From IMG/VR virus record IMGVR_UViG_3300037311_000355: DNA of 64,000 nt, one strand, 5' to 3'. Position numbers and translations under genes: made by a program. Shown here one piece after another: positions 9,785 through 54,401 of this stretch. Below the pieces are notes generated by a model. It worked only from the letters and a program-made list of their open reading frames with translations, did no database searches and was not told where the DNA came from. The DNA is from a virus. The stretch's first letter is position 1; each line of letters starts with the position of its first letter.

Positions 9785-12406
9785 TCATTGGTTTAAAACA
9801 AATCCCACAGGAACCACGCCGTTGCCGTTGGCGAGTTCGACCGCCAGTCTTACTCCGACCTGTGGTCCTTTTATTGTGATTTCAAGCCTTTGCAGGGCTC
9901 CGAATCTGAAGTCTTCTTCAATGGCGGCTTTCAATGACTGATAGATGTCGGCGGCGGCGATGTCTGCGTTGCTTATGCCGTGTTGGAGTCCGGATCCGAA
10001 GCTCGGATGTTTGATAAGCCTGCCTAGTGGGGTGGCGAATTTAAGCCAAAGCGCTTGTATGATGTTTGCCATGCCAAAACTAAGCCTGATCTCCGCAAAG
10101 GAGTCAAGGGCCAAATCACCGCTTTCCGTGAGCTTCCAATCGATCTTGCTGAGACCTACAAGGGGGTCGCCTTTGGTCACGGGCACGGGCCTGGTGTTGG
10201 GCTGCTCGTCGGCGGGCAGGTCGCTGGGTATAAAAATCTGGTTTTGGCTGTTGACGGTTCCCGGCAGGTAGCCACGGATTCTCGCGCCCGCGCTTAACGT
10301 GTACGGCGACAGGTCGTCGAGACCGTCGAGGGTAATGAGATAGTTGGTGTCGCTGATTCTTTCGATGTTTACAACACGTCTGGAGCGCAGGGGCTGCCCG
10401 CTTGCGATCAACGTAAGTCTTTGATTTACGTAAAGATTCTGATTTGAGGCGACGTTGATCTGTCTCCCACTTGCGTTAGATAGCAGCGGGTATTCGAACC
10501 CGCTTTCGTCGATGTAGGGGCTGCGGAGCGCGTTTAGGGTCGCGATTTCAAGCCAGCGATCGGGGTCGCCTAAATAACGGGCAGCGATTTGCTCGATGGT
10601 GAGCCCAAACGGAACCGGTACTCTGATCTTAGCCGCGGTGGTGTCGAAAGTGATGTCCGAGGCCTGGGCTAGTTCTGCCACGTATTCCATTGCGGATTGA
10701 ATTCTGCCGTCGTCGATGTCGTTGGTAACCGTGAGATCGCTGTACGCCTGCACGGTGTTGTAAATGGCGGCAAGTACGGCGTACTCGTCGATGGTGATGG
10801 GTTGCACGCGCTCGCGTTTCGTCGGCCTTCCGTAGACGCGGTTGTAGGTGTCGTCGCCGTCGCCGAAGGCGTTGCTGATCTGTAGCGCGAGATCGAGCAT
10901 GGTTTGACGGTGGCGTCTGAGGTCGTCGACGGTGAGTAGGGACACGCGCTCGACTTCGGCGTCGATGGCGTCGCGCTGGCTTGGGCTTAGCTTAAGGGTG
11001 TCAACGCCGACGGCGTCAAAAAGGTCAAAGTTTTGCTCCGGCGATTGAAACGCGTTTTGCGTGGGATCCACGGCTAACGCCGACCTCTGACGCTGACCGG
11101 CCTGCCCACGCTGTACCGCTGCCGTGTTTAGTCCCTCGCGCTGCTCGCGTTGGCCGGCGAAGCCTTGAAGCTGGGTTTTAAGTGTTTGCTGGGAAGCCAG
11201 GGACTGAAAGCTCGTGGAGTCCAGAGTTGCCAGTGCGTCGCTGACGGCGGCGAAGCTGTCGCCGATGAGCTGCGATGGTAGGTCGGCTACTGTGGCCGGT
11301 AGGCTTGCTAGTTCTTTGATGAAAAGCGCGGTTTCCCTGAGTGCGTTAAAAGGGGTCTGGAAATCACTTCTTACCGCCCTGACGAGGTTGTACGCGGTTG
11401 CAAGCGCGCGTCTGGTCTCGCGTACCGCGTTTAGCGCGGATTGAAGGATTGACGGCGTGAGGCCGGGCAGGCTTGGCGGAGGGCTGGAGTCCACGCTTTC
11501 CACTGTTATGCGGCGCCAGGCTTTGAGTTGCATGCGGTATTTGATTTCCGCCGGCGACTCAATGCTTTGCAGCCAGTCGAAAAGCATGGGGGTGACAATA
11601 AATGATTGATTTTGCTTGGGAATGTCAAGTACAAGCCTAAGTGTGGAATTTCTGGGGTCGCGCTTGAGTTCCGCGTACTGCTCCAGGAACTGGTCGAGCA
11701 AAAGCGCCTGCGCGTATCCGGTACCTGTCGCACCTTCCGGGGTTTGCGCGGGCGGAATCACCGCCGACGCCGACTGCGGGTGTTTGTTGTCGGCGATGCG
11801 GGCGAGGCCTTGGATTTGGTTGGCCAAAGCTCCTGCGAGTTGCAAAGACGAGCCCGCGGCGGCCTGGATTTCGGCTTGAATGCGAGCCTCGGGGCTTTGT
11901 GGCTTCGGTCCCTGATCCAGGGTGGGTCTAAACGGCCACACGCCCATGGTGCCGGCGAAGTTGATGAGCTTAAACCTGACGCCGCCGTGCTCTTCGACGA
12001 CGCCTTTTAAGGTGGCATAGCTTTCAACGGCAAACGGTGTCGAGATCTGCATCTGTTGGGGCGTAATAGGCAGTCTGAACTCCCATTTGTTGCCAACGGG
12101 TTCAAAAATGATGTTAAAACCACCCGTGGGTAGCTGCTCTTTTCTTGAGTTTATTTGCCCCTGTTTGCCTACGATCTTATTGCCGTTTGCGACGTCGACG
12201 ACGAGCAATCTATAAGGATAGAGCTTATCCCAGCGATCGGGCTCGATGGTAATGGGTTTGAAAAACGTGCCGGGCGTGCCCTCGGGTTTCCAGGGCGCCG
12301 CCGCTGATCGGGCTTGATTCGACGACTGTTGTCCAATCAGGTTTCTCGCTGACGCGGCTGCGGAATCGATGAGATTTGCCGGGGATGGAATCAATCTATT
12401 ACTCAT
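9785..12406 (-). CDS. baseplate protein with LysM/tail-X-like domain and C-terminal gp25-like domain, 873 aa
   Basis: PFGLTIEQIAARYLGDPDRWLEIATLN is LysM-like; C-terminal NIIQALWLKFATPLG.LIKHPSFGSGL...AAIEEDFRF is gp25-like. Confidence 0.7.
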   Translation of the reverse strand: MSNRLIPSPANLIDSAAASARNLIGQQSSNQARSAAAPWKPEGTPGTFFKPITIEPDRWDKLYPYRLLVVDVANGNKIVGKQGQINSRKEQLPTGGFNIIFEPVGNKWEFRLPITPQQMQISTPFAVESYATLKGVVEEHGGVRFKLINFAGTMGVWPFRPTLDQGPKPQSPEARIQAEIQAAAGSSLQLAGALANQIQGLARIADNKHPQSASAVIPPAQTPEGATGTGYAQALLLDQFLEQYAELKRDPRNSTLRLVLDIPKQNQSFIVTPMLFDWLQSIESPAEIKYRMQLKAWRRITVESVDSSPPPSLPGLTPSILQSALNAVRETRRALATAYNLVRAVRSDFQTPFNALRETALFIKELASLPATVADLPSQLIGDSFAAVSDALATLDSTSFQSLASQQTLKTQLQGFAGQREQREGLNTAAVQRGQAGQRQRSALAVDPTQNAFQSPEQNFDLFDAVGVDTLKLSPSQRDAIDAEVERVSLLTVDDLRRHRQTMLDLALQISNAFGDGDDTYNRVYGRPTKRERVQPITIDEYAVLAAIYNTVQAYSDLTVTNDIDDGRIQSAMEYVAELAQASDITFDTTAAKIRVPVPFGLTIEQIAARYLGDPDRWLEIATLNALRSPYIDESGFEYPLLSNASGRQINVASNQNLYVNQRLTLIASGQPLRSRRVVNIERISDTNYLITLDGLDDLSPYTLSAGARIRGYLPGTVNSQNQIFIPSDLPADEQPNTRPVPVTKGDPLVGLSKIDWKLTESGDLALDSFAEIRLSFGMANIIQALWLKFATPLGRLIKHPSFGSGLQHGISNADIAAADIYQSLKAAIEEDFRFGALQRLEITIKGPQVGVRLAVELANGNGVVPVGFVLNQ

Positions 12407-27407: not shown

Positions 27408-27674
27408 ATGAAAAACGGCAAGTTTTCGGGAAAACCCATAACGGTTTTTAAAAACGCCGTGCCTTCGCTGCTTACGCGCATAAAACTAACGAGAACCACG
27501 TTGCGCTCTAATTTGTCGGCGATTATTCGGCTAAAAACAAGCAGAGAGTGTTTGGAATTAATTGAAAACAAAAAAGACGTGAGTCCAATAGATTTGTTAT
27601 TTGAAACACGATCTGCTTGGGTTTGGGGTGTTAGAGAGGCCTACAAAAGCGTTTATTGCGAGGATCAGGCGTGA
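27408..27674 (+). CDS. hypothetical protein
   Basis: AAGGGGG SD; GTGA overlap with heptad gene A. Confidence 0.55.
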   Translation: MKNGKFSGKPITVFKNAVPSLLTRIKLTRTTLRSNLSAIIRLKTSRECLELIENKKDVSPIDLLFETRSAWVWGVREAYKSVYCEDQA

Positions 27675-28309
27675 ACATCTGGCACTTTGACAGCAGTGGA
27701 AACCGGGTTGCAGGGCCCCATCAGCGCATCACCGGCGACGTGTCTGGCCTCCGCGGCAACGTGTCTGGCCTCCGCGGCGACGTGTCGGGCCTCAGTGGCG
27801 ACGTGTCTGGGCTCCGCGGCAACGTGTCTGGCCTCCGCGGCGACGTGTCGGGCCTCAGTGGCGACGTGTCTGGGCTCCGCGGCAACGTGTCCTACCTCTG
27901 GGGCGACGCGTCTGCGATCAGCGGCGACGCGTCTGCGATCAGCGGAGACACATCTGGGATCTGGGGCGACGTGTCCGGGCTCTGGGGCCGCGTTTCCAGG
28001 CTCCGCGGCGACCTGTCTGGGATCCGCGGCGACGCTTCTAATATCTGGGGCGACGTGTCTGAGATCTGGGGCGACGTGACTGGGATCTGGGGCGACGTGT
28101 CTGGGATCCGCGGCGACGCTTCTAATATCTGGGGCGACGTGTCTGAGATCCGCGGCGACGTGTCTGGTCTGCGGGGCGACGTCTCTGGCATCCGGGGCGA
28201 CGTATCCGACATCCACGGCGACGCGTCGGGACTGTTTTTGGACTGCACAGGGCTTCTCGGTGCCATCGACGAGTCGGTAAACATAGGGGATACCAAATAT
28301 GAGCGATGA
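27671..28309 (+). CDS. GDVSG-heptad repeat protein A (24 heptads + LDCT cap)
   Basis: N-terminus IWHFDSSGNRVAGPH; 21-bp repeats at 27734-28237; start revised to the GTG at 27671. Confidence 0.8.
   Translation: MNIWHFDSSGNRVAGPHQRITGDVSGLRGNVSGLRGDVSGLSGDVSGLRGNVSGLRGDVSGLSGDVSGLRGNVSYLWGDASAISGDASAISGDTSGIWGDVSGLWGRVSRLRGDLSGIRGDASNIWGDVSEIWGDVTGIWGDVSGIRGDASNIWGDVSEIRGDVSGLRGDVSGIRGDVSDIHGDASGLFLDCTGLLGAIDESVNIGDTKYER
27734..28237 (+). repeat. 24 x 21-bp coding tandem repeat (consensus GGC GAC GTG TCT GGG CTC/ATC CGC/TGG) with 63-bp and 84-bp higher-order periods
   Basis: Counted from the translation and the DNA. Confidence 0.95.
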
Positions 28310-29381
28310 AAACCTGCCGTGTTTGTATAAGCGATCAAAAACCGGCGCCACGCTATTCTGGCGAGTGCACGTGGAGGCCGAACCCAGACACGCCGTGGTT
28401 ACCGAGTACGGCGTCGTGGGCGGCGCCACGCAGGTCGCCAGGGTCGAAGTCGGCGGCAAAAACAAAGGCAGGAAGTCGGAGACCACAGACGCCGAACAGG
28501 CGGTAAAAGAGGCGCGGCAACTGTGGCGGAAACGCGTGGAACGCCAGGGCTACAGCACCGACGCCGAGGCCAAACCGAGGTTTTCACCGATGCTAGCCCA
28601 GGTTTACCGCGCCGCCGCCACGCAATGGCCGCAATACGTGCAGCCCAAACTAGACGGCCACCGCGCCACCTATGACGGCGGCCTGTGGTCGCGGACCGGG
28701 GTCCGGATTGCCGGGCTCGGGGACCTGGAAACCGAAATCCAGGCCCTGCTTGGCGAGAAGTCTTTGGTGCTAGACGGCGAACTCTACAACCACGACATGA
28801 GGGCCGATTTCGAGGCCCTGACGTCGGCGATTAGGGGTTCCGCCGAAGACCGCGGCCAGGGGGCAGTGGAGTACCACGTCTACGACTGCTACGTGCCCGG
28901 ACTCGATTTCGAAGCTCGGATGAAGGTTTTAGACCAGGTCTTCGGCGGCCTGAGTCGCCGGGGTCGCGTGGTAAGGGTGGAAACCGTAGCTGCGGCGTCG
29001 GAGGCCGAGATGTGGGACCGGTTTCGCGACTTCCGCGACAGCGGCTACGAGGGCGCCATGCTTAGGGCTCCCCGGGGCCTCTACGTCTGCCAGAGAAGCC
29101 GGGACCTACAAAAGGTAAAGGAATTCCAAGATGCGGAATTTGAAGTCGTGGCTGTAAAAGAAGGCCGTGGCCGCGCCAAGGGGTCCGCGATTCTAACATG
29201 TGTGACCGCCGACGGTCTTAGGTTCGACTGTGTGCTAAAAGCAGATTTGGAAACCCGGCGCCAGGTCTTCCGCGACCGCGAGTCCTACGTGGGGGCGCGG
29301 CTAACGGTGGGGTTTCAAAAGCTGAGCAAAAGAGGGGTGCCCGTGTTTCCCGTAGGACTTAGGTTTAGAAAAGACCTGTGA
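28299..29381 (+). CDS. ATP-dependent DNA ligase with N-terminal WGR-like domain
   Basis: Motif I YVQPKLDGHRA, LDGELY, YHVYD, EGAMLR, LQKVKEF, and an OB domain ending GVPVFPVGLRFR. Confidence 0.92.
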   Translation: MSDENLPCLYKRSKTGATLFWRVHVEAEPRHAVVTEYGVVGGATQVARVEVGGKNKGRKSETTDAEQAVKEARQLWRKRVERQGYSTDAEAKPRFSPMLAQVYRAAATQWPQYVQPKLDGHRATYDGGLWSRTGVRIAGLGDLETEIQALLGEKSLVLDGELYNHDMRADFEALTSAIRGSAEDRGQGAVEYHVYDCYVPGLDFEARMKVLDQVFGGLSRRGRVVRVETVAAASEAEMWDRFRDFRDSGYEGAMLRAPRGLYVCQRSRDLQKVKEFQDAEFEVVAVKEGRGRAKGSAILTCVTADGLRFDCVLKADLETRRQVFRDRESYVGARLTVGFQKLSKRGVPVFPVGLRFRKDL

Positions 29382-29405
29382 TTTCAGGTATTTTGTAACC
29401 CGGTC

Positions 29406-29434
29406 TTGCCTGGGAACCGTTTTTGTGCTAGAAT
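29406..29434 (+). promoter_or_regulatory. sigma70-type promoter, leaderless geometry (TTGCCT-17-TAGAAT-6-ATG)
   Basis: Read directly; also TG extended -10. Confidence 0.65.
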
Positions 29435-29440
29435 TAAACC

Positions 29441-29761
29441 ATGACAGCAGATAAATGTGAGATCTATCACTTCGACGACAGCGGAAACCAGATCTGGGGA
29501 CCCAATAAGGACCTCCGCGGCGACGTGTCTGGTCTGCGGGGCGACGTCTCTGGCATCTATGGTGACGTGACTGGGATCTGGGGCGACGCGTCTGGGATCT
29601 GGGGTGACGTGTCTGGCATCTGGGGTGACGTGTCAGGCCTCCGGGGCAACGTGTCTAGTATCTACGGCGACGTGTCTGGGATCCGCGGCGACGTATCCTA
29701 CATACAAGGAGACGTGACTGGGCTATTTTTGGACTGCACGGCAATCAGAGGTAAAATATGA
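29441..29761 (+). CDS. GDVSG-heptad repeat protein B (10 heptads + LDCT cap)
   Basis: IYHFDDSGNQIWGPNKDLR N-terminus; repeats at 29519-29728. Confidence 0.8.
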   Translation: MTADKCEIYHFDDSGNQIWGPNKDLRGDVSGLRGDVSGIYGDVTGIWGDASGIWGDVSGIWGDVSGLRGNVSSIYGDVSGIRGDVSYIQGDVTGLFLDCTAIRGKI

Positions 29762-29961
29762 GGCCAATAAAGCAATCGATAAAAATTCCGCACCCCTGGT
29801 GGCACATCGTTTTCACTTTTTCTTTAGGCAAATACGTGGTTTATGCGATGCGGGGAAGCGTGGAGCGCAAGTGGTGTCCGATTTGCGGAATCGAATATAG
29901 GATCAAGCGCCCGGGGATCAGGGATAAAGTCGTTTACGTCGGCGATAGAAGCCCGGGCTAG
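29758..29961 (+). CDS. small zinc-ribbon hypothetical protein
   Basis: CPIC motif; GAGG SD; ATGA overlap. Confidence 0.55.
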   Translation: MRPIKQSIKIPHPWWHIVFTFSLGKYVVYAMRGSVERKWCPICGIEYRIKRPGIRDKVVYVGDRSPG

Positions 29962-30004
29962 GCGTTTATAAATTAACTGTTTTTTGCAACTAAAATGAGG
30001 TCCT

Positions 30005-30184
30005 ATGTGGGATTCCGACGAAAACCGAGACCGCGAGTGCCGGAAATGCGGTAACTGGGACCGCAACTGGCGGGACACCACGGAGTGCAGGTGCGAGGCG
30101 AAACCGAAGTCGAAACCGAAGCCCGTGGATGACAGACCCGAAGACGCTTGGGAGCACTGGCGACGGGGCTGGGGCGAGTGGTGA
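30005..30184 (+). CDS. 59-aa Cys/Trp-rich protein (MWDSDENRDRECRKCGNWDRNWRDTTECRCE...)
   Basis: Manual translation; GAGG SD at 29997-30000; CxxC and CxC motifs. Confidence 0.6.
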   Translation: MWDSDENRDRECRKCGNWDRNWRDTTECRCEAKPKSKPKPVDDRPEDAWEHWRRGWGEW

Positions 30185-30252
30185 TTGCCGGACATCGGGG
30201 CCGCCTGCGCGCGCAGACATTGGATTCCAGGCCTTCGCGGGAAAGCCGACCT
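30020..30252 (+). repeat. donor copy of a dispersed direct repeat (30020-30097 + 30179-30252) re-found at 30484-30637
   Basis: A 78-bp exact match and a 74-bp match with one extra CG, joined at a GCGAG microhomology. Confidence 0.95.
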
Positions 30253-30388
30253 ATTGCTAAGTCATTGATGTCATTACTAAATATTACCGCCGGGATTCAG
30301 TCGCAGATAAGACGTTGAAACCATTGCGGTTTTGCCAATACATAGGCGGCCTCGGCGACGGTTTACCGTTACCTGTTTTTGTCATGAG

Positions 30389-30417
30389 TTGACAACGGGC
30401 TTCGGTTTTGCTATCGT
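30389..30417 (+). promoter_or_regulatory. sigma70-type promoter, leaderless geometry (TTGACA-17-TATCGT-6-ATG)
   Basis: Read directly. Confidence 0.65.
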
Positions 30418-30423
30418 AGATAT

Positions 30424-30803
30424 ATGGCAAACGATAAAATCTATCACTTCGACAAAAACGGAAACCGGGTCCGGGGACCGCATGAAAACCGAGACCGCGA
30501 GTGCCGGAAATGCGGTAACTGGGACCGCAACTGGCGGGACACCACGGAGTGCAGGTGCGAGTGGTGATTGCCGGACATCGGGGCCGCCTGCGCGCGCGCA
30601 GACATTGGATTCCAGGCCTTCGCGGGAAAGCCGACCTCCACGGCGACGTGTCTGGGATGCAAAGCAAGGCGTCCGACCTCCGAGGGAGGGCGTCGGGGAT
30701 ATGGGGTTTGGTGTCTAAAATAAGAAAGAAACTTTTTGATTTTGGCAAAACTCTGAGATCTAAAATAACAAAGAAAGTCAGCGGCGGGAAAAACAAATCC
30801 TGA
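30424..30803 (+). pseudogene. GDVSG-heptad family member C, interrupted by an insertion of about 150 bp
   Basis: Family N-terminus MANDKIYHFDKNGNRVRGPH; duplicated segment with an in-frame stop at 30565-30567; then DLHGDVSGM... plus a basic tail in another frame. Confidence 0.8.
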
Positions 30804-30843
30804 CGTCAGCGCTGGTACAAGCACCTAAGACGCCGGGTACCAA

Positions 30844-30890
30844 ATAAGTTATGAAATCGGCGCCGCCGGACTTATAACTGATCTTTTTTC
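30844..30890. terminator. possible terminator/hairpin between convergent genes
   Basis: ATAAGT...ACTTAT arms around a CGGC/GCCG stem, followed by a T-run. Confidence 0.3.
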
Positions 30891-30915
30891 CGAAACCGGG
30901 CCCTATGACAGGGCT

Positions 30916-31239
30916 CTAGCTCTGGCCTACCGTTGGCAGCTCTTGCGCCCATCGCTGGAAGCCCAAGTGAGCCGCGGAGCCCGGCTCCAGGTAGGCCAAC
31001 GCGGTTTTATAGGCGCGGAAACCAGCGACTCCGTGTTTGCCGGCGTGGGCGCGCATCTTGGCCAAGCTGTGAACTTCCAAAACCGCGCCGCAGGTCTCGC
31101 ATCTGACGTGGGTCGCCCATCCGCGTTTCCGAGACCAGCCCTTGACGTAGGCGTCGCCGGGACTGGGCTGGGCGGCTGGAGTAAAGCCCAGAGCCCTGAC
31201 GGCGGCGAGATGGAATTCCGGATGCCTGTGGGCGGTCAT
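30916..31239 (-). CDS. hypothetical protein with C2H2-like Zn finger (CETC...H...H)
   Basis: Start revised to the ATG at 31239, overlapping the stop of gene D. Confidence 0.6.
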   Translation of the reverse strand: MTAHRHPEFHLAAVRALGFTPAAQPSPGDAYVKGWSRKRGWATHVRCETCGAVLEVHSLAKMRAHAGKHGVAGFRAYKTALAYLEPGSAAHLGFQRWAQELPTVGQS

Positions 31240-31601
31240 CGCTGGTCTCGGCGGGGTTTTTTGAGCCCAAGGGGCTCGGTTTCTAGGTCGGCAACAACTG
31301 CGGTGCAATCCGCGAACAACCCAGACACGTCGCCGCGGAGCCCAGACACGTCGCCGCGAAGCCCGGATACGTTGCCGTAGATTCCAGACACACTTCCGCG
31401 GAGCCCAGACACGTCGCCGCGAAGCCCGGATACGTTGCCGTAGATTCCAGACACACTTCCGCGGAGCCCTGACACGTCGCCCCAGATATTAGAAGCGTCG
31501 CCCCAAAGCCCAGAAGCGTCGCCGCAGATGTCTTTGTGCGGTTCCCAAATTTGATCTCCGTCGCGGTCTAAGTAATACAAAAAAATCTGCTTTGTTTTCA
31601 T
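31236..31601 (-). CDS. GDVSG-heptad repeat protein D (10 heptads + ADCT cap), inverted orientation
   Basis: IFLYYLDRDGDQIWEPHKDIC N-terminus; repeats at 31314-31523, with a 63-bp unit duplicated. Confidence 0.8.
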   Translation of the reverse strand: MKTKQIFLYYLDRDGDQIWEPHKDICGDASGLWGDASNIWGDVSGLRGSVSGIYGNVSGLRGDVSGLRGSVSGIYGNVSGLRGDVSGLRGDVSGLFADCTAVVADLETEPLGLKKPRRDQR

Positions 31602-31623
31602 GTCAGATATTCTATTACAGCGT

Positions 31624-32316
31624 TCATCCTAAGGTGTCGATGGCCAAACGGGCCGCGTTTTGTTCAGCTTCTTTCTTGGAAGAGCCTTTGGCCGTGGCCA
31701 GAGGGCGGCCGCTCATCCGCACCTCGACTTCGAAGACTTTGGCATGGTCGGGGCCTTGGGTGCCGAGCAAATGGTAAGAGGGAGTGGTCCGCCACTTGGC
31801 TTGGCTGATCTCCTGGAGCTGGGTCTTGTGGTCGTAAAAGGCCATGAGCTCACGCTCTTCGGAAAAGAGCGGCTCAAAGAGCTGGCGCACCACCGGATAG
31901 ACCGCGCCGAAGCCGCCATCCAGGTAAATCGCCGCAATCAAGGCTTCAAACGTACTGGAGAGAATGGAGGGCTTGAGCGCCCCTCCGGTCGCGGCCTCGC
32001 CCTTTCCGAGGCGGATAAACTCCTGGAGCCGGAGCGAACGCGCCACCTCGGCCAAAGTTTTTTCATTCACCACCGCGGCCCGCATCTTGGAAAGCTGCCC
32101 CTCACGGGAATTGGGGAAAGACTCGAGGAGGATATCCGAAATCACCACGTCCAGGACGGCGTCGCCCAGGAACTCCAACCGCTCGTTGTCCCGGAGACCC
32201 ACCGGAACCTTCGAAAGGTGCTCGTGCCCGAAGGAGGTATGAGTCAACGACTGCAGCAGGATCGAAGAATCCCCAAAGGTGTAGCCCAGCCGTTCTTGAA
32301 GGCGTTCGAGAGTCAT
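31624..32316 (-). CDS. rnc: ribonuclease III (catalytic domain + dsRNA-binding domain)
   Basis: ALTH-like SLTHTS, signature NERLEFLGDAVL, FEALIAAIYLDGG, and dsRBD DHKTQLQE...GPDHAKVFEVEV...GSSKKEAEQNAA. Confidence 0.97.
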   Translation of the reverse strand: MTLERLQERLGYTFGDSSILLQSLTHTSFGHEHLSKVPVGLRDNERLEFLGDAVLDVVISDILLESFPNSREGQLSKMRAAVVNEKTLAEVARSLRLQEFIRLGKGEAATGGALKPSILSSTFEALIAAIYLDGGFGAVYPVVRQLFEPLFSEERELMAFYDHKTQLQEISQAKWRTTPSYHLLGTQGPDHAKVFEVEVRMSGRPLATAKGSSKKEAEQNAARLAIDTLG

Positions 32317-32534
32317 GACTGCTGGCCTTCTTTGTTGTCTGTGATGCGAATCTTAGCAATCCTGCCGTAGTTTTTCTTTTCCACAACCATGGCGTGTCCG
32401 TGGGCCACCATTATTTCCGCGGCACGGTGCTGGAGCCGGTTCTCTACTTTTGCCCAGCCGTTTAGACTGGCGTCAAAAAACCAGGCTTCCAGGGCTCGGA
32501 TGTCTGCTTTTCTGCCGTAAATGGTTGTCTTCAT
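32313..32534 (-). CDS. hypothetical protein, 73 aa
   Basis: Leaderless-type promoter upstream; ATGA overlap with rnc. Confidence 0.65.
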   Translation of the reverse strand: MKTTIYGRKADIRALEAWFFDASLNGWAKVENRLQHRAAEIMVAHGHAMVVEKKNYGRIAKIRITDNKEGQQS

Positions 32535-32540
32535 AACACC

Positions 32541-32569
32541 AGACTATCATATGCCGGCGTGTTTTGCAA
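32541..32569 (-). promoter_or_regulatory. sigma70-type promoter, leaderless geometry (TTGCAA-17-TAGTCT-6-ATG)
   Basis: Read directly. Confidence 0.6.
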
Positions 32570-32647
32570 CCGGCGTCGCTAAAACCCCAGACCCGGCTTC
32601 CCGCGTTTCTTTACATGTCTTATAAGCGCGACGAGTGCAATTAAGCC

Positions 32648-32677
32648 TTGACTTAGGCGTTGATTTCCGGCTATGGT
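32648..32677 (+). promoter_or_regulatory. sigma70-type promoter, leaderless geometry (TTGACT-18-TATGGT-6-ATG)
   Basis: Read directly. Confidence 0.55.
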
Positions 32678-32683
32678 TTGGTT

Positions 32684-33049
32684 ATGGCAAAGCATAAAAT
32701 CTGGCATTTCGACGGCAACGGCAAAAGGATTTGGGGGCAGCATGAAAAAATCCGCGGCGACGTGTCCGGGATCTGGGGCGACGTGTCCGGGCTCCGCGGC
32801 TACGTGTCCGAACTCGGCGGCGACGTGTCTGGGCTCAGCGGCGACGTGTCGGGTCTCAAGGGAGGCGTGTCGGGTCTCAAGGGAGGCGTGTCTGGGTTTA
32901 GCGGTAACATGTCTGGAATCCGTGGCAATGTGTCTGGTATCAAGAGCAAAACCTGTGTTCATTGCAACGGAAAATTACCTAAAATTAAGACTAAAAACCT
33001 CACAAATAAAACCACATCTAAGTCTGGACGCAGGAGGCGCGTGAAATGA
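32684..33049 (+). CDS. GDVSG-heptad repeat protein E (9 heptads + CxxC + basic tail)
   Basis: MAKHKIWHFDGNGKRIWGQHEKIR; repeats at 32756-32944; start revised to 32684. Confidence 0.8.
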   Translation: MAKHKIWHFDGNGKRIWGQHEKIRGDVSGIWGDVSGLRGYVSELGGDVSGLSGDVSGLKGGVSGLKGGVSGFSGNMSGIRGNVSGIKSKTCVHCNGKLPKIKTKNLTNKTTSKSGRRRRVK

Positions 33050-33468
33050 AAGCTTTGATAGGCGAAGACATCAGGACCATAGATGTTAAAAACGACGACT
33101 ACTACACCTGGGTACACATAGGCGCCGGGGATATGACGGAATACGACGCCGAAAGACTGGCCCGTATCAGAGAGCTTGAGGTCAAATACGAGCGCGAGTG
33201 GTCGAAAATAACCGACGAAGGCAAACCCTTGGTACTTTACGTGTTGGCCGGCCACCTCGTGGCGGCAAATTTCGAGGAATTCGCGGAAATTTACCTAAAA
33301 AAAGCCGAAACCGAGCACCCGACTTACCTGCGCTCGCAGGTTTTCGAGCACCTGAAACAGTTTTCCAACTATCCCCGGCTTTGGCGTGCGATTGTAAAAA
33401 GATTTGACACCAGATATTCTGAAATCGCGTTCGCCTTGACAACTATGGAAACCGGAGACGAGGAGTAG
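33046..33468 (+). CDS. hypothetical protein, 140 aa
   Basis: AGGAGG SD; ATGA overlap. Confidence 0.7.
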   Translation: MKALIGEDIRTIDVKNDDYYTWVHIGAGDMTEYDAERLARIRELEVKYEREWSKITDEGKPLVLYVLAGHLVAANFEEFAEIYLKKAETEHPTYLRSQVFEHLKQFSNYPRLWRAIVKRFDTRYSEIAFALTTMETGDEE

Positions 33469-33495
33469 CGGCACCGAGGTGTTGAGAGGAAAACT

Positions 33496-33693
33496 ATGAA
33501 AAACAAAAAAATCTGGCACTACGACGTCGACGGCAAAAAGGTATGGGGACCCAACAAAGACCTCTGGGGCGACGTGTCTGGCCTCCGCGGCGACGTGTCT
33601 AGGATATTCAGCGACACCTCTGGGCCTCTAAAGCGTAAAAATAAGACCGCGGGCGTCAAAACAAAACCAAAACGCAAGCAAAAGAAAAACTAG
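33496..33693 (+). CDS. GDVSG-heptad repeat protein F (2-3 heptads + basic tail)
   Basis: MKNKKIWHYDVDGKKVWGPNKDLWGDVSGLRGDVS; GAGGA SD. Confidence 0.75.
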   Translation: MKNKKIWHYDVDGKKVWGPNKDLWGDVSGLRGDVSRIFSDTSGPLKRKNKTAGVKTKPKRKQKKN

Positions 33694-33738: not shown

Positions 33739-34698
33739 ATGGCACACGAAATCGAATCCATGATGTTTGTAGGCGAAACCCCTTGGCATAGGCTTGGCAC
33801 GCGATTTATACAGCCACCGGGTGTCGAAGAGGCCATTGTTGCCGCGGGTTTGAATTGGAATGTAAAAACCGAACCCGTGTTCACCGCTGGTATGGAGGCC
33901 GTAGAAGCCAGGGTCACAAGACGGGATTCTGACAATAAAATTCTAGGCGTCGTTGGCAAAAACTACGAGCCCCTGCAAAACACACAGGCTTTTGACTTTT
34001 TTCAGCCTTTTCTGGATTCCAAACTAGCCGCTATTGAAACCGCGGGCAGTCTTAGGGGTGGCAAGCGAGTGTTTGTGTTGGCAAAAATTAACCGCGACCC
34101 GAGTGTAATTGTGGCCGAAGACATCGTGGAAAAATACGTGCTGCTTTCCAACAGCCACGACGGGTCTACGGCAGTTCGTGTCGGTTTTACTCCGATTCGC
34201 GTTGTGTGCCAAAACACGCTTGCAATGGCCCACGGCAACGAAAGCAGTGCTTTGATTAGGGTCCGACACACATCTAAGGTAAGAGCAAATGTGGAGGCCG
34301 TCAGAGAGATCATGGACGTCGCCAATAGTCGCTTTGAGGCCACGGCAGCACAGTACCGGTTTTTGGCGTCTCGGGAAATCAACGCCGCCGATTTAGAAAA
34401 GTACGTAAAAATTGTTTTCGGCAAAGAAAAGCTTGACGCTGTGGCAAAAAATCTTGGCGTCGTTGACGTATCTGGAAAGCGCCTGATGGCCGAAATCGTG
34501 CCGCTTTTTGAATCCGGCAGAGGAAACAGCCAAAACAAAGTGCGCGGTACGTATTGGGCCGCATATAATGCGGTAACCGAATACCTGCAATACTATCGCG
34601 GTTCCAGCGAAGACCTTAGACTCGACAGTCTTTGGTTTGGCCAGGCCGGTGCGGTAAACAAAAAAGCGCTTGAAGTCGCAATGAGAGTTGCGGCCTAA
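33739..34698 (+). CDS. DUF932 family phage/plasmid protein
   Basis: MAHEIESM.FVGETPWH.LG, YEPLQN..AFDFF, ETAGSLRGGKRVF, LLSNSHDGS..VRVGFTPIRVVCQNTL. Confidence 0.88.
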   Translation: MAHEIESMMFVGETPWHRLGTRFIQPPGVEEAIVAAGLNWNVKTEPVFTAGMEAVEARVTRRDSDNKILGVVGKNYEPLQNTQAFDFFQPFLDSKLAAIETAGSLRGGKRVFVLAKINRDPSVIVAEDIVEKYVLLSNSHDGSTAVRVGFTPIRVVCQNTLAMAHGNESSALIRVRHTSKVRANVEAVREIMDVANSRFEATAAQYRFLASREINAADLEKYVKIVFGKEKLDAVAKNLGVVDVSGKRLMAEIVPLFESGRGNSQNKVRGTYWAAYNAVTEYLQYYRGSSEDLRLDSLWFGQAGAVNKKALEVAMRVAA

Positions 34699-48940: not shown

Positions 48941-51469
48941 TTATTGCGCCGCCGAACTTTGAACCTGGCTGATTTCCAGTTCGATCGGAATGAAATAGAT
49001 AGTTGTGCTGAGCTTGATTTCGACGCCTACGGACATCGTAGGTCCGCTGATTTCGATTTTTGCGTTTTTGTAACCCAGCGCTGCGTCGTCGCTTGTAGTG
49101 ATGAGCTTAAGCCTTCTATAGCCGTCCATTTTATTAGAAAGGAAGGCAAGCGCAGAAGTTTGATCGACGTCGGCAAGCGACTGACCAACAAAGGCTCTTT
49201 GGAAGCTATCTGCGAGATCAAGGCTTACGATGTCGGCGGCGTACACGGCTTGTAAGCTGTTGTAGACGAAATTGTTGTCTAAGCCATATGTAGTCTGGTC
49301 ACTAACCCATTTCGTGCCTGCGGTTTCTGCTTGCAAGATCAATAGTCCGGACTCTAATGCCTGCTCGACGTCGCCAGGGCTTCCGCTGTCGAACCCCTGT
49401 GGGTCGACGTAAGAAATTACGTTGGCAAACTTATTTGTAATGCCCTTGTAAAAACCTGCGCCCTGCATGCCCGCGGCAACACAGGCCGCATACCAGGGCT
49501 GGAACTCCTGAACCTCGCCCTGGCTGTTGACCTGAGAGACGCGCTGGAAGGCCAGCGAACATCTAAAGCTTGCCAGGGTTTGCGCCTGCGATTTCGCCGT
49601 CGCGTAATCGGACTGAATGCCGCCAATTAAAATACGGTTTCTTTTCAGCTTAGGAGTGCTCATTTTTAACACATGAGACTTCGTTGCGACCAGAATCGCG
49701 GAAATCGTGTACGTGGAACCGGAGTCGGTTTCCGCGTCCGCGATGTCTTCGCTGGCGTCGCGGCTAAACAGAGGCACGACAAAGTTGGTCTGAACGCCTT
49801 CCAATGCGGTAAGCGCATCCAGGTAGTTGGCGCCAGTCGTGGCGCCCCTGAGGCCTCCGGAAAGAAAGTCCCCCAAAGACATCGGAGACGGCAACCCCTC
49901 TACCTCGTCGGCGCTGAAATCAACGGCCTGGCTTTGTGCGATTGCTCGCTTAAAGTTTTCCAGCGAACGCTTGATGCGACCCGGCTTTTCTCCAGCGATC
50001 GAAGACGCGATGCCCATGCCCGACACCTTATCGATGGCTAGTGGCGAAAGCTGTGTGGCTTCCGGCGTCGCAGACGCGCTGTATCCGGGTTGCGATGCCA
50101 AGAACTCCGCAAGCGCGGCACATGTCGAAAACGCCGACAGGTCGACGCTAAGGTTTGCCCCGGATCCGCCGGTAACCGAAGTCGTCAATTGGTTGCCAGA
50201 AATCGACAGCGACCCCGTAGTTCCCAGGTATCCAATCTCAATAGCGATTTCACCGGCAACGACTAGGGTTTCGCTGAGTCCGATGTCGGCGCGGGAAATA
50301 GAAACCTCGATTTCCGATTCCGCCGAGCTTTCATAGGTGCCCGCGGATAGTCCCAGGAGACCGAGGTCGCCTGGAGTGCTGTCGATGAGCTGCAGGGTTT
50401 TTCCAAAACCCTTTCTGTAGTTGGCGGAATCCGCGTCTACAACCAATTTAATTGTATTAGTCGCAGTCCCGGCTTCCGCGGAAATTCCCGAAGGAAGCAG
50501 GGAGTTGAGTTCGGCAATGAGTTCAGCAATGGTGTCGTGCTCGCTTTCGTCGGAACCCAGGGTCACAACTGCTGCGGCGCCGCCGTTAATGCGAAGACTA
50601 AAGCTCGCGCCGTTTAGCGCGGAGGCGTCGAAAAGCCCGCCTTGCTGAGACACGGTAATTGCAAACGCGCCTCCGACGTCTACGTTTTCCGCGTCGCTGG
50701 CCTCGCCGTTGTCGACGTTGGTAACCGTCACCATGGCACCAAGCACGGTGGCGGCAAAATCAGCCTCGGCGTTGATGGCCAATTGAGTAGCGGTTGCCAC
50801 TGCCGTATTTGCGTCTGCGCTGGAAATCGCAACTTCGATACCGATCCGCCCCGCGGGAGCCGGGTCTCCGCCGCCGGCGTCGACGTTAAACCACACGTAG
50901 TAGGAGTCAGATGCGCTGTCGAGCAAAAAATGTTGTCCGGTAGAAATGTCGGATCCCGCGGGAAGCGTGATGTCCGTGACTTCCGCGGTTGCGCCCGGAT
51001 TTGCCAGGGCAGCTACTGCAGTGCCCGTGACTTCTGGCGCGGATTCCAGCTGAGATGCGGTGATTTGGTATCGGATTTTATTGCCATCGGTACCCCAGTT
51101 TTTAGCCCTGAGCACGCCGTAGTCGGTGTCGACATCAGCGGAGGCTTTTTCTCCGGAGTTCGTTTTTAGAATATAAACACGGCTGACGGATCCCTGAATT
51201 CCGGCGTCGGCGCTGGGCGCGCTAAGGGCGCGCATGGCGTCTACAATGGGACCTGAAACGTATTTTTCCACGACTTGAGCAACCTGGTCAGGAGAGAAGA
51301 AGTTGTCTTTAAGGCTTTCCGAAGAAAACGCCGCCCCACCCTCGGCTTCGCCGATTACGGCAATGATGCCAGTTAATCCAAGGCCGACAGGCGTGGACTT
51401 AACAGTAGTGTTTACGTATGCGCCGGGAGTCACCGTGTTCACAAAAGGTGTTACTAATCGCTGTGCCAT
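48941..51469 (-). CDS. tail sheath protein (842 aa, with inserted domains)
   Basis: PGAYV, IIAVIGEAEGG, VVEKYVSGPIVDAM..L and a C-terminal sheath domain; AGGAG SD. Confidence 0.88.
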   Translation of the reverse strand: MAQRLVTPFVNTVTPGAYVNTTVKSTPVGLGLTGIIAVIGEAEGGAAFSSESLKDNFFSPDQVAQVVEKYVSGPIVDAMRALSAPSADAGIQGSVSRVYILKTNSGEKASADVDTDYGVLRAKNWGTDGNKIRYQITASQLESAPEVTGTAVAALANPGATAEVTDITLPAGSDISTGQHFLLDSASDSYYVWFNVDAGGGDPAPAGRIGIEVAISSADANTAVATATQLAINAEADFAATVLGAMVTVTNVDNGEASDAENVDVGGAFAITVSQQGGLFDASALNGASFSLRINGGAAAVVTLGSDESEHDTIAELIAELNSLLPSGISAEAGTATNTIKLVVDADSANYRKGFGKTLQLIDSTPGDLGLLGLSAGTYESSAESEIEVSISRADIGLSETLVVAGEIAIEIGYLGTTGSLSISGNQLTTSVTGGSGANLSVDLSAFSTCAALAEFLASQPGYSASATPEATQLSPLAIDKVSGMGIASSIAGEKPGRIKRSLENFKRAIAQSQAVDFSADEVEGLPSPMSLGDFLSGGLRGATTGANYLDALTALEGVQTNFVVPLFSRDASEDIADAETDSGSTYTISAILVATKSHVLKMSTPKLKRNRILIGGIQSDYATAKSQAQTLASFRCSLAFQRVSQVNSQGEVQEFQPWYAACVAAGMQGAGFYKGITNKFANVISYVDPQGFDSGSPGDVEQALESGLLILQAETAGTKWVSDQTTYGLDNNFVYNSLQAVYAADIVSLDLADSFQRAFVGQSLADVDQTSALAFLSNKMDGYRRLKLITTSDDAALGYKNAKIEISGPTMSVGVEIKLSTTIYFIPIELEISQVQSSAAQ

Positions 51470-54192: not shown

Positions 54193-54395
54193 CAGTACCT
54201 TTCGTGCGTGAGATCGCCGCCGGAATCCAAGGCCACGCCTTTTTTTCTATCGATCCACTTACGTCTTCCGGTTTGGTTGTCGACGACGATTTGCAAACCC
54301 TCGTACGTTATCGCACCCTCGGGAAGGGGTTTTTTGGCCACATGCGCTGTGCTTTGTCGAGTCGGAAGACGGGCCTTTTCAACCGACTCTAGGCT
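54192..54395 (-). CDS. 67-aa C-terminal extension reached by -1 frameshift from 54389..55624
   Basis: Open -1 frame SLESVEKARLPTRQSTAHVAKK...HERY with no start codon of its own; its TGA overlaps the next ATG. Confidence 0.7.
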   Translation of the reverse strand, partial: SLESVEKARLPTRQSTAHVAKKPLPEGAITYEGLQIVVDNQTGRRKWIDRKKGVALDSGGDLTHERY

Positions 54396-54401
54396 TTTGG
54401 G
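54359..54401 (-). promoter_or_regulatory. -1 programmed ribosomal frameshift cassette
   Basis: Slippery C-CCA-AAA (54401-54395), 5-nt spacer, GAGTCGG/CCGACTC stem (54389-54383 / 54365-54359). Confidence 0.7.

What the first reader, a model, noticed from the sequence alone, without database searches (positions are those of the whole stretch)
27671..33693. Six-member dispersed gene family built from variable 21-bp GDVSG(L/I)x heptads
Seen: genes A (27671, 24 heptads), B (29441, 10), C (30424, about 4, disrupted), D (31601 minus, 10), E (32684, 9) and F (33496, 2-3). All share an N-terminal cap I(W/Y)H(F/Y)DxxGxx(I/V)xG(P/Q)(H/N). Variation concentrates at heptad positions 5-7 (G/E/N/Y; L/I; R/W/S/Y/K/H). 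There are two C-terminal classes: an (L/A)DCT cap (A, B, D) or a Lys/Arg-rich tail (C, E, F). They alternate with unrelated genes (ligase, RNase III, hypotheticals), and B, C and E have their own promoter. Inference: a beta-solenoid family with a tunable surface (decoy, sponge or binder for a polymorphic host target), and/or recombination anchors that shuffle cargo genes.
Basis: partly seen in the sequence, partly recalled or inferred. Interest (0 to 1): 0.8.

Follow-up and report, generated by a model that had tools for sequence, protein, structure and literature searches.

The report
Expanded phage family of heptad-repeat proteins
A large uncultivated freshwater phage carries at least seven diverged copies of a small gene built from 7-residue G-D-V-S-G-L-x repeats; the genes belong to a big, unnamed, almost purely viral protein family whose shape (probably a beta-solenoid rod of adjustable length) and job are still unknown.

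Summary
Six genes at 27671-33693 share an N-terminal hairpin cap and 2-24 in-frame G-D-V-S-G-(L/I)-x heptads. A seventh copy lies about 78 kb further on in the same phage genome. Codon third positions carry most of the variation, so selection acts on the protein, not on the DNA repeat.

The genes belong to a large unnamed family: 2582 representatives, almost all viral and metagenomic, with no qualifying Pfam or NCBIfam match, only weak PHROG matches to coiled-coil and fibre families, and no paper found. This scan has met the family before on other DNA. Elsewhere it sits in early, DNA-handling regions and not in virion modules. It is often in tandem copies, and heptad number differs between near-identical strains.

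The fold is unresolved. AlphaFold2 on the 24-heptad copy gives one strand per heptad and a beta-solenoid like antigen 43, at moderate confidence. Sequence profiles instead pick trimeric coiled coils (gp26, fibritin).

- B, C and E each have a sigma-70-like promoter whose -10 box ends exactly 6 nt before the ATG, with no Shine-Dalgarno sequence.
- Gene C is broken by a 100%-identical copy of a neighbouring segment.
- The recombination-anchor idea has only weak support.

Function is unknown. My best guess is early accessory binder rods.

The parts
27671..28309 (+). Gene A: 212 aa, made of a cap, 24 heptads (27734-28237) and a diverged L-D-C-T tail. It is acidic (pI 4.5).
   Evidence: The GTG start overlaps the stop of ORF 27408-27674, and a GAGGA box lies upstream. 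The AlphaFold2 model has one strand per heptad.
28299..29381 (+). ATP-dependent DNA ligase. It overlaps the end of A by 11 nt and lies between A and B.
   Evidence: Pfam DNA_ligase_A_M 5e-13 and PHROG 114 5.5e-65. Junction shown.
29406..29434 (+). Sigma-70-like promoter of B (TTGCCT, 17 nt spacer, TAGAAT). The -10 box ends 6 nt before the ATG and there is no Shine-Dalgarno sequence.
29441..29761 (+). Gene B: 106 aa, made of a cap, 10 heptads and an L-D-C-T tail. pI 4.3.
   Evidence: In the AlphaFold2 model the cap hairpin has pLDDT 92.
29758..29961 (+). 67-aa ORF. Its start overlaps the stop of B (ATGA). No family match.
30005..30184 (+). 59-aa Cys-rich ORF (CxxC...CxC). It lies inside the first copy of the duplicated segment (30020-30097 plus 30168-30252).
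30389..30417 (+). Sigma-70-like promoter of C (TTGACA, 17 nt spacer, TG-TATCGT). The -10 box ends 6 nt before the ATG.
30424..30567 (+). Gene C, 5' part. A 20-aa cap is fused to the Cys-rich segment and ends at a TGA.
30484..30637 (+). Second copy of the duplicated segment, 154 nt. It is 100% identical to the first copy apart from one extra GC at 30590-30591. It adds a net 146 nt to gene C and shifts the frame.
   Evidence: In a second sample the GC is absent, so the only break left is a single in-frame TGA.
30630..30803 (+). Gene C, 3' part: 4 degenerate heptads and a Lys-rich tail, in another frame.
30916..31239 (-). 107-aa ORF. Its start overlaps the stop of D (ATGA).
31236..31601 (-). Gene D: 121 aa, made of a diverged cap, 10 heptads and an A-D-C-T tail. 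A 63-nt unit (3 heptads) is repeated at 98% identity.
   Evidence: The contig from a second sample (L176) has no other difference across D.
31624..32316 (-). RNase III, lying between D and E.
   Evidence: Pfam Ribonucleas_3_3 1.9e-37 and dsrm 8e-18.
32648..32677 (+). Sigma-70-like promoter of E (TTGACT, 18 nt spacer, TATGGT). The -10 box ends 6 nt before the ATG.
32684..33049 (+). Gene E: 121 aa, made of a cap, 9 heptads and a CxxC-containing Lys/Arg tail. pI 10.6.
33046..33468 (+). 140-aa ORF. Its start overlaps the stop of E (ATGA).
33496..33693 (+). Gene F: 65 aa, made of a cap, 2-3 heptads and a Lys-rich tail. pI 10.5. It has its own Shine-Dalgarno sequence.
33739..34698 (+). DUF932 protein, the gene that follows F.
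   Evidence: Pfam DUF932 8.9e-54. Gene call.

Best explanation
These are at least seven diverged paralogues of one small protein in a myovirus-type freshwater phage of 118 kb or more.

Each protein has three modules:
- a roughly 20-residue N-terminal beta-hairpin cap
- a run of G-D-V-S-G-(L/I)-x heptads whose number changes by whole units through tandem duplication
- a short C-terminal module, either the family's Cys-containing cap or, in this phage only, a Lys/Arg-rich tail

They belong to a large, unnamed, almost purely viral family.

The array most likely folds as a narrow beta-solenoid rod. Each heptad gives one strand and one G-D corner. The invariant Ser/Thr and Leu/Ile stack inside the rod. 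The variable positions 5 and 7, rich in Arg, Trp and Tyr, line the outside. This fold step is inferred from AlphaFold2 at moderate confidence and is contested.

The genes lie in the early, accessory part of the genome. Several sit behind their own host-type promoters, read directly from the start codon, and are translationally coupled to an unrelated downstream gene.

I infer that the proteins are early-expressed cytoplasmic rods of adjustable length. Their repeated surface would bind a repetitive or polyvalent host or phage partner. The basic-tailed copies would bind nucleic acid. The paralogues would then be diversified binders.

Shown: the anatomy, the protein-level selection, the family membership, the genomic context and the length polymorphism. 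Inferred: the fold, the timing and the binding role.
For: Anatomy and in-frame repeats.

Protein-level selection:
- Entropy is 0.85-1.7 bits at codon third positions of heptad positions 1 and 3-7.
- Entropy is 0.43 bits or less at the first and second codon positions of G1 and S4.

Family size and identity:
- 488 small homologues share the cap, the heptads and the Cys tail.
- 2582 representatives reach E<=1e-3.
- 76 of the 100 nearest ESM Atlas hits are clusters without a Pfam family; the clusters listed are about 90% Viruses.
- No Pfam or NCBIfam model passes its threshold, and PHROG gives only weak matches to coiled-coil and fibre families.
- Only one uncultured record among 50,697 GenBank phages matches.

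Fold:
- AlphaFold2 of A gives an EEEEE-- pattern for each heptad, with pLDDT up to 80 and pTM 0.49.
- The best structural matches are beta-solenoids: antigen 43b at Z 15.0 and rmsd 3.3 over 171 residues, TibA at Z 14.1, and the MpAFP beta-helix at Z 13.8.
- Foldseek rows are all parallel beta-helices, none significant.
- Strictly conserved Gly, Asp/Asn and Ser/Thr fit corners and inner ladders better than a helix does (inference).

Genomic context in 78 viral loci: the neighbours include repressors, methyltransferases, Erf, exonuclease, helicase and ligase, with only a single virion structural protein among them.

Tandem copies: 22 of 78 loci hold 2-4 copies, with 4-35 heptads per gene.

Length polymorphism: +8 and +5 heptads between strains 99.3% identical in their flanks.

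Expression signals: promoter geometry and stop-start overlaps.
Against: AlphaFold2 of B gave no strand or helix in its heptads, and the model matched nothing.

Both models have only moderate confidence.

Profile searches against solved structures hit only trimeric alpha-helical coiled coils:
- gp26-type tail needle 4lin, 1e-8
- cavin HR1, 7e-5
- fibritin, 0.009

The same heptad type occurs in a YadA-type adhesin (P0124), outside its head, stalk and anchor matches. I read that stretch as a stalk segment from the neck-like motif in front of it, which is knowledge-based and untested.

Val and Leu/Ile fall on classic a/d positions.

There is no 2- or 3-heptad super-period in 147 arrays.

There are no expression data and no partner.

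The acidity is moderate (family median pI 5.3), so a DNA-mimic version of the binder idea is not favoured.
Confidence: 0.4

Rival explanations
1. The heptads form a parallel, probably trimeric, alpha-helical coiled-coil rod. Val would sit at position a, Leu/Ile at d, Gly at c and f, and Asp and Arg at g and e. The hairpin cap would act as an oligomerisation nucleus, much as the foldon does. The proteins would then be small fibres or spacers whose length is set by heptad number.
For: A profile of the family hits only trimeric coiled coils among solved structures: gp26 4lin 1e-8, cavin HR1, fibritin 1avy 0.009, and sigma-1.

Pfam and PHROG weak hits are LPP, Baculo_PEP_C, tail needle and minor head protein.

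The same heptad type (G-N-V-T-T-L-Q) occurs in a YadA-type adhesin, P0124, between neck-like motifs.

Length changes by any whole number of heptads.

An earlier follow-up in this scan favoured this fold for a relative (e1-2051043, unchecked).
Against: No helix was predicted in any heptad of A or B.

Two Gly per heptad, with Gly1 at 98% and Ser/Thr4 at 100%, are hard to explain on the solvent face of a helix (inference).

One-residue insertions always fall at position 5, for example in P0037 and P0118.
Confidence: 0.25
2. The proteins themselves matter little. The 21-bp arrays would act as dispersed homology that lets the phage delete, invert or swap the genes lying between copies (ligase, RNase III, small ORFs).
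For: A and B share a 44-nt exact stretch in direct orientation around the ligase.

Gene C carries a 100%-identical 154-nt copy of a segment 464 nt upstream.

Arrays grow by 63-nt and 84-nt tandem duplication.

Short-read contigs break at every array.
Against: Codon-level conservation shows selection on the protein.

The cap and tail are conserved across hundreds of unrelated phages.

Other paralogue pairs share only 14-32 nt exactly.

The one second-sample contig (L176) matches the window across RNase III, D, the 107-aa ORF and the C 3' part, apart from one 2-nt indel.

Relatives of the ligase and of DUF932 have no heptad genes nearby.
Confidence: 0.1
3. The repeats are substrates, not binders. 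The invariant Ser/Thr of each heptad would be modified, for example glycosylated, as in the TibA/AIDA-I solenoids. Alternatively the peptide would be processed like a repeat-containing RiPP precursor.
For: NCBIfam RiPP_TigB is the top hit, below threshold (52.9 against a cut-off of 70 bits).

TibA, a hyper-glycosylated solenoid, is the second structural match.

Paralogue G lies two genes upstream of a GT2 glycosyltransferase in an overlapping gene string.
Against: The TigB score is below its cut-off.

The six window copies have no modifying enzyme beside them.

No such enzyme is enriched among neighbours in 78 loci.
Confidence: 0.05

Closest known systems
Unnamed viral G-[DN]-V-[ST]-x-[LI]-x heptad family (metagenomic proteins such as P0006, P0009, P0016; one GenBank record, MW202691 hypothetical protein UOF80481)
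   Same: It has the same three-part plan. The N-terminal hairpin cap has an aromatic-His-aromatic ... Gly ... Gly-Pro/Val-His pattern. A variable heptad run follows, then a Cys-containing C-terminal cap. It has the same early-region context and the same tandem paralogy.
   Different: Here the C-terminal module is shortened (A, B, D, G) or replaced by a Lys/Arg tail (C, E, F). Such tails are rare in the wider family. The copies are dispersed among other genes and not strictly tandem.
Three-sided beta-solenoids of self-associating autotransporters (antigen 43, TibA, AIDA-I) and the MpAFP Ca-dependent beta-helix
   Same: They are the best structural matches of the model of A: Z 13.8-15.0, rmsd 3.3-3.5 over 169-197 residues. 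They also have short repeats with one strand per side.
   Different: There is no sequence relation (11-16% identity). The unit here is 7 residues, against the roughly 19-residue repeats I recall for those proteins (from memory). These proteins have no signal peptide or autotransporter domain and are small phage proteins without a signal peptide. The model itself has only moderate confidence.
Trimeric coiled-coil fibres with D-V-S-x-L heptads: P22-like tail needle gp26 (4lin), T4 fibritin (1avy), YadA-type adhesin stalks
   Same: The heptad period is the same. Val/Ile and Leu are spaced 3 and 4 residues apart, and Gly and Asp/Asn precede the Val. The profile E-value reaches 1e-8.
   Different: There are two Gly per heptad and an invariant Ser/Thr. 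No helix is predicted. These are not virion genes by context.
Lolium perenne ice-binding protein beta-roll (Pfam LbR_Ice_bind, PDB 3ult)
   Same: As I recall it, the protein is built on a 7-residue x-x-N-x-V-x-G unit containing V-S-G (from memory). There are weak Pfam hits (E 8.5e-4 for D, 0.015 for A). VIA gives Z 11.4.
   Different: The scores are below Pfam's cut-off (19.8 against 30 bits). The rmsd is 8.7. That protein is plant and secreted, and it has two heptads per turn.

Membership tests
Unnamed viral GDVSGLx heptad family | N-terminal hairpin cap (aromatic-His-aromatic, Gly turn, Gly-Pro/Val-His) | tested here: met
   The motif is present in A, B, C, E, F and G, and diverged in D. It aligns with the cap of homologues. 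AlphaFold2 predicts a hairpin with pLDDT 92 in B.
Unnamed viral GDVSGLx heptad family | Uninterrupted run of G-[DN]-V-[ST]-x-[LI]-x heptads | tested here: met
   56 heptads lie in register. phmmer E-values against family members go down to 1e-84.
Unnamed viral GDVSGLx heptad family | C-terminal D-x-C-E-I-T...E-R...G-I-D...L-I module | tested here: inconclusive
   A, B, D and G keep only D-C-T or D-C-A plus a diverged remnant. C, E and F lack it. 67 of 120 small homologues have it.
Trimeric alpha-helical coiled coil (gp26 / fibritin / TAA stalk type) | Hydrophobic a/d heptad pattern | tested here: met
   Val/Ala is at position 3 and Leu/Ile at position 6 in 93-96% of heptads.
Trimeric alpha-helical coiled coil (gp26 / fibritin / TAA stalk type) | Alpha-helical secondary structure | tested here: not met
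   AlphaFold2 gives no helix in the heptads of B or A. This is a prediction only, made on monomers.
Trimeric alpha-helical coiled coil (gp26 / fibritin / TAA stalk type) | Homo-oligomerisation | not testable with these tools
   It needs SEC-MALS or a solved structure. The one complex job gave no verdict (see Tried and rejected).
Beta-solenoid repeat proteins (antigen 43/TibA type, left-handed hexapeptide helix, pentapeptide repeat) | One strand plus one turn per repeat, stacked into a solenoid | tested here: inconclusive
   Met in the model of A, with Z 15 to antigen 43b. Not seen in the model of B. Mean pLDDT is 66-71.
Beta-solenoid repeat proteins (antigen 43/TibA type, left-handed hexapeptide helix, pentapeptide repeat) | Sequence match to a solenoid repeat model (Hexapep, Pentapeptide, LbR_Ice_bind) | tested here: not met
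   Only LbR_Ice_bind matches, and it is below threshold (19.8 and 15.9 bits against 30). There is no Hexapep or Pentapeptide hit.
RiPP precursor TigB (NF047709) | Score above NCBIfam's cut-off | tested here: not met
   The best score is 52.9 bits against a cut-off of 70.
Choline-binding / cell-wall-binding repeat (PF01473) for the N-terminal cap | Score above Pfam's cut-off | tested here: not met
   Only the cap of C hits, at 12.8 bits against 20.5, E 0.16. The other caps give no hit. The likeness is a lead from memory only.
DNA-mimic anti-restriction proteins (Ocr, ArdA, MfpA type) | Strongly acidic surface | tested here: inconclusive
   A and B have pI 4.3-4.5, D and G 5.3, and C, E and F above 10. 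The family median pI is 5.3.

The most novel reading that the evidence does not exclude
The family would be a new class of phage early accessory proteins. Each would be a single-chain heptad beta-solenoid of a fold type not yet solved, with length and outer Arg/Trp/Tyr ladder that evolve quickly by whole-repeat gain and loss. Phages would use it to bind, and blunt or redirect, a repetitive host target such as a defence sensor, nucleic acid or envelope polymer. In this phage, seven paralogues each head their own leaderless mini-operon and carry an unrelated cargo gene.
Probability: 0.12. Interest if true: 0.75.

Novelty: new variant of a known kind. Interest (0 to 1): 0.5.

Why it matters
The family is large. 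It has thousands of representatives, almost all from uncultivated phages. It has no name, no solved structure, no paper and practically no member in cultured phages, so it is a real blind spot in phage biology.

This phage is an unusually rich case:
- It holds at least seven paralogues with 2 to 24 repeats.
- It has two tail types.
- It has its own promoters.
- One copy was caught mid-rearrangement.

It therefore offers a natural series for testing fold, oligomeric state and function.

If the solenoid model holds, the heptad would add a repeat length to the known hexa- and pentapeptide solenoids. It would also give a simple scaffold of adjustable length. If the coiled-coil reading holds, it would be an unusually Gly-rich coiled coil.

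Tried and rejected
- **Homotrimer prediction of B** (complex prediction): no verdict, score 0.01. It is evidence neither way.
- **Fold searches with the B model**: no meaningful match.
- **Foldseek with the A model** against PDB, BFVD and the Atlas: nothing at E<=0.001. All rows are beta-helices, which is only suggestive.
- **Rfam on 26-35 kb**: only a chance microRNA hit.
- **RNA fold of the duplicated segment in C**: z = 0.68, so no structure.
- **Near-identity search against GenBank phages**: no match.
- **Synteny test:** relatives of the ligase (best 38-43% identity) and of DUF932 (up to 66%) carry no heptad genes within 10 kb. They are too distant to say whether cargo between copies varies.
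- **Source contig lookup in IMG/VR**: not found.
- **Whole genome:** none is held, and the Logan record could not be searched through its handle.
- **Sequencing runs**: one DNA run, probably the source sample, and no RNA holder listed. Expression is therefore untested.
- **Laid contigs**: they break at every array and show joints that turned out to be a paralogue (G), not rearrangements.
- **Exact look-ups of B and E in other samples**: nothing beyond the source.
- **Search for a 2- or 3-heptad super-period** in 147 arrays: flat, so it does not separate the fold models.
- **Literature string and phrase searches**: nothing on this family.
- **DNA-mimic idea:** acidity is only moderate.
- **Diversity-generating retroelement idea:** considered but not pursued. 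The variation is not adenine-specific, and no reverse transcriptase appeared among the few window proteins scanned; most of the window was not scanned.

Full report
**1. Setting**

The window is part of a large tailed phage.
- It holds a tail sheath (48941-51469) and a baseplate protein (9785-12406).
- It has no tRNA genes.
- No whole genome is held for it, and it has no near match among GenBank phages.
- The only run that holds the DNA is a freshwater metagenome.
- Its Logan contigs of 33 kb and 82 kb flank the repeat region. Together with the gap between them they span about 118 kb.

Walking along the 82-kb contig shows more of the gene content:
- a portal protein
- two ClpP-type proteases
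- a Cpn60 chaperonin
- a DnaE-type polymerase
- a faint gp32-like hit
- DnaB
- an SbcC-like protein

The finding lies in a 13-kb stretch of small, mostly unannotated genes (about 21.9-34.7 kb). This stretch sits between two blocks of mostly large minus-strand genes, which hold the baseplate and tail-sheath genes.

**2.

Tandem Repeats Finder finds 21-nt arrays at each gene. It also finds 63-nt and 84-nt higher-order units in A, B and D, which are recent tandem duplications of 3-4 heptads. The unit in D is 98% identical between copies.

Start sites:
- A starts at GTG 27671. The start overlaps the stop of the upstream ORF, and a GAGGA box lies upstream.
- E starts at ATG 32684.

Over 56 heptads the consensus is as follows:
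- position 1: G 98%
- position 2: D/N 89%
- position 3: V/A 93%
- position 4: S/T 100%
- position 5: G 75%
- position 6: L/I 96%
- position 7: free

Variation at the DNA level sits mainly in codon third positions of the conserved residues. The frame is therefore under protein-level purifying selection. The long ORFs in the other frames and on the opposite strand are by-products of the repeat.

The two tail classes are real:
- A, B and D are acidic (pI 4.3-5.3).
- C, E and F end in Lys/Arg-rich tails (pI above 10).

**3. More than six copies**

Contigs laid on the region showed pieces resembling B, C and E at the far end of the 82-kb contig. Walking there revealed a seventh member, G (L142:18073-18450, 125 aa). 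It has a cap, about 13 heptads and an A-D-C tail. It is identical in a JGI contig (L141). G is 72-82% identical in DNA to the window copies.

**4. Gene C**

C has an intact cap of 20 residues. It then carries a 154-nt segment that is 100% identical to parts of a region 464 nt upstream (30020-30097 and 30168-30252). That upstream region encodes a 59-aa Cys-rich ORF.

Compared with its paralogues, C has a net 146 extra nucleotides. It also has an in-frame TGA at 30565-30567 and a frame shift.

A contig from another sample (L176, JGI 3300043244) is otherwise identical over 1.8 kb but lacks one GC of a (GC)n run at 30590-30591. In that variant the cap and the heptads are back in one frame, and the only break left is the single TGA.

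So C is a recently rearranged copy and a variable one. Whether it is dead, or read through, is open.

**5. The family**

Size and distribution:
- B finds 488 small proteins of 58-186 aa at E<=1e-3.
- B finds 2582 representatives in the exhaustive search, 456 of them at E<=1e-10.
- 76 of the 100 nearest ESM Atlas hits are clusters without a Pfam family; the clusters listed are about 90% Viruses.

The small proteins share one plan:
- a Lys-rich N-terminus
- a hairpin cap
- n heptads
- a D-x-C-E-I-T...E-R...G-I-D...L-I tail

Annotation:
- No Pfam or NCBIfam model passes its threshold, and PHROG gives only weak matches.
- The sub-threshold hits are coiled-coil families, the grass ice-binding beta-roll and the RiPP precursor TigB.
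- Only one record among 50,697 GenBank phages, an uncultured podovirus, carries a true member.
- A string search and a phrase search of the literature found nothing.
- Long proteins also use the heptad as a module. Examples are a YadA-type adhesin and a subtilase.

This scan has met the family several times on other DNA. Those notes are unchecked. They agree that the family is unnamed, common in phages and of unresolved fold.

**6. Context elsewhere**

I examined 78 viral loci that carry a member.
- 22 hold 2-4 copies, usually tandem.
- Heptad number runs from 4 to 35.
- The nearest neighbours include repressors and regulators, DNA methyltransferases, Erf, exonuclease, helicase, ligase and thymidylate synthase, with only a single virion structural protein among them.
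- Many members lie at contig ends. This fits the assembly breaks seen here.

Two strains whose flanks are 99.3-99.4% identical differ by 8 heptads in one gene and 5 in the next. Length is therefore polymorphic in whole heptads.

A different subfamily occurs in three copies on contig L001.

**7. Expression signals**

B, C and E each have a sigma-70-like -35/-10 pair. The -10 hexamer ends exactly 6 nt before the ATG, and no Shine-Dalgarno sequence is present. This geometry would give leaderless mRNAs (inference from known promoter-to-start spacing).

The region has 10 promoter-like sites, against 4.3 +/- 2.1 in shuffles.

A and F have Shine-Dalgarno boxes.

A, B, D, E and G overlap the start of the next, unrelated gene by 4 or 11 nt. 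Such overlaps are common in phages, so on their own they mean little.

**8. Fold**

Two lines of evidence disagree.

(a) AlphaFold2:
- For B (10 heptads, 61-row alignment) it gives a confident cap hairpin. The heptads have no assigned structure, with pLDDT 64-78. The model matches nothing.
- For A (24 heptads, 28-row alignment) it gives one 5-residue strand per heptad, with the G-D pair as the turn. pLDDT reaches 80 and pTM is 0.49.
- Exhaustive structural alignment of the A model puts three-sided beta-solenoids on top: antigen 43b (Z 15.0, rmsd 3.3, 171 residues), TibA (Z 14.1) and MpAFP (Z 13.8).

(b) A profile of the family against solved structures finds only trimeric coiled coils. The heptad has Val and Leu/Ile on a/d spacing.

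I weigh the near-invariant Gly and the invariant Ser/Thr, together with the absence of any predicted helix, in favour of the solenoid. My estimate is about 0.55-0.6 for the solenoid and 0.25 for the coiled coil.

A test for a 2- or 3-heptad super-period in 147 arrays was flat and does not discriminate.

**9. Function**

Nothing here shows function.

What the evidence does show:
- Context places the genes in an early, accessory, DNA-handling neighbourhood.
- The proteins have no signal peptide.
- The array length is adjustable.
- Variable positions 5 and 7 would lie on one side of each strand, opposite the conserved Ser/Thr and Leu/Ile.
- The paralogues have diversified.

These features fit early cytoplasmic rods that bind a repetitive or polyvalent partner. 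The basic tails of C, E and F suggest nucleic-acid contact.

Alternatives:
- A DNA-mimic role is not favoured, because acidity is only moderate.
- The recombination-anchor idea has weak support. A and B share 44 nt of exact identity around the ligase, but other pairs share 14-32 nt. The only second-sample contig has the same arrangement.
- A role as a substrate for modification is a long shot.

**10. Verdict**

This is a real, well-described and lineage-expanded instance of a large, uncharacterised viral repeat family. The solenoid inference is plausible but unproven. The functional ideas remain untested.

Noticed in passing
L142:18073-18450 (Logan contig SRR13020431_83316, about 78 kb beyond gene D; identical in JGI contig L141): A seventh family member, G (125 aa, about 13 heptads, A-D-C tail). 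It heads an overlapping gene string with a 111-aa ORF and a GT2 glycosyltransferase (PF13632).
   Followed up: partly
window 30020-30252 and 30484-30637: A segment duplicated at 100% identity. It encodes a CxxC...CxC peptide followed by TGA. One copy is a free-standing 59-aa ORF with a 26-codon insert, and the other lies inside gene C. A (GC)n run at 30590-30591 differs by one unit between samples and changes the reading frame of C.
   Followed up: partly
window 29406-29441, 30389-30424, 32648-32684: Three promoter-like sites with identical geometry. The -10 box ends 6 nt before the ATG and there is no Shine-Dalgarno sequence, which suggests leaderless transcripts in this phage-host pair.
   Followed up: partly
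window 59417-63838 (-): A 1473-aa protein with an ART-PolyVal domain (PF18760, precomputed hit). This is a polyvalent ADP-ribosyltransferase-type protein lying among apparent virion genes.
   Followed up: no
window 54389-55624 (-): A 411-aa protein with a precomputed hit to the mCpol domain (PF18182, minimal CRISPR polymerase).
   Followed up: no
window 31624-32316 (-): A full-length phage-encoded RNase III with a dsRBD. It is 100% identical in a second JGI sample (3300043244).
   Followed up: partly
window 3200-9745 (-): A 2181-aa ORF next to the baseplate and fibre genes. It was not examined.
   Followed up: no
L110:3558-4970 versus L112:4207-5346 (IMG/VR contigs): A tandem trio of family genes in two strains that are 99.3% identical in their flanks. 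The middle gene differs by an exact 8-heptad duplication and the third gene by 5 heptads.
   Followed up: yes
L001:6451-7029, 7697-8182, 10001-10354 (ENA contig, 75 kb): Three paralogues of a different subfamily of the same heptad family. They have another N-terminus and a T-I-E-E-L-K tail, and lie just upstream of the portal gene, downstream of two methylase genes.
   Followed up: partly
L122:9992-10504 and L125:3631-4143: A family member whose tail is a hydrophobic, membrane-anchor-like segment in place of the Cys cap.
   Followed up: no
L137:3564-5324; L140:11217-14774: The same phage genome encodes a Cpn60/GroEL-type chaperonin and a DnaE-type Pol III alpha subunit with a PHP domain.
   Followed up: no
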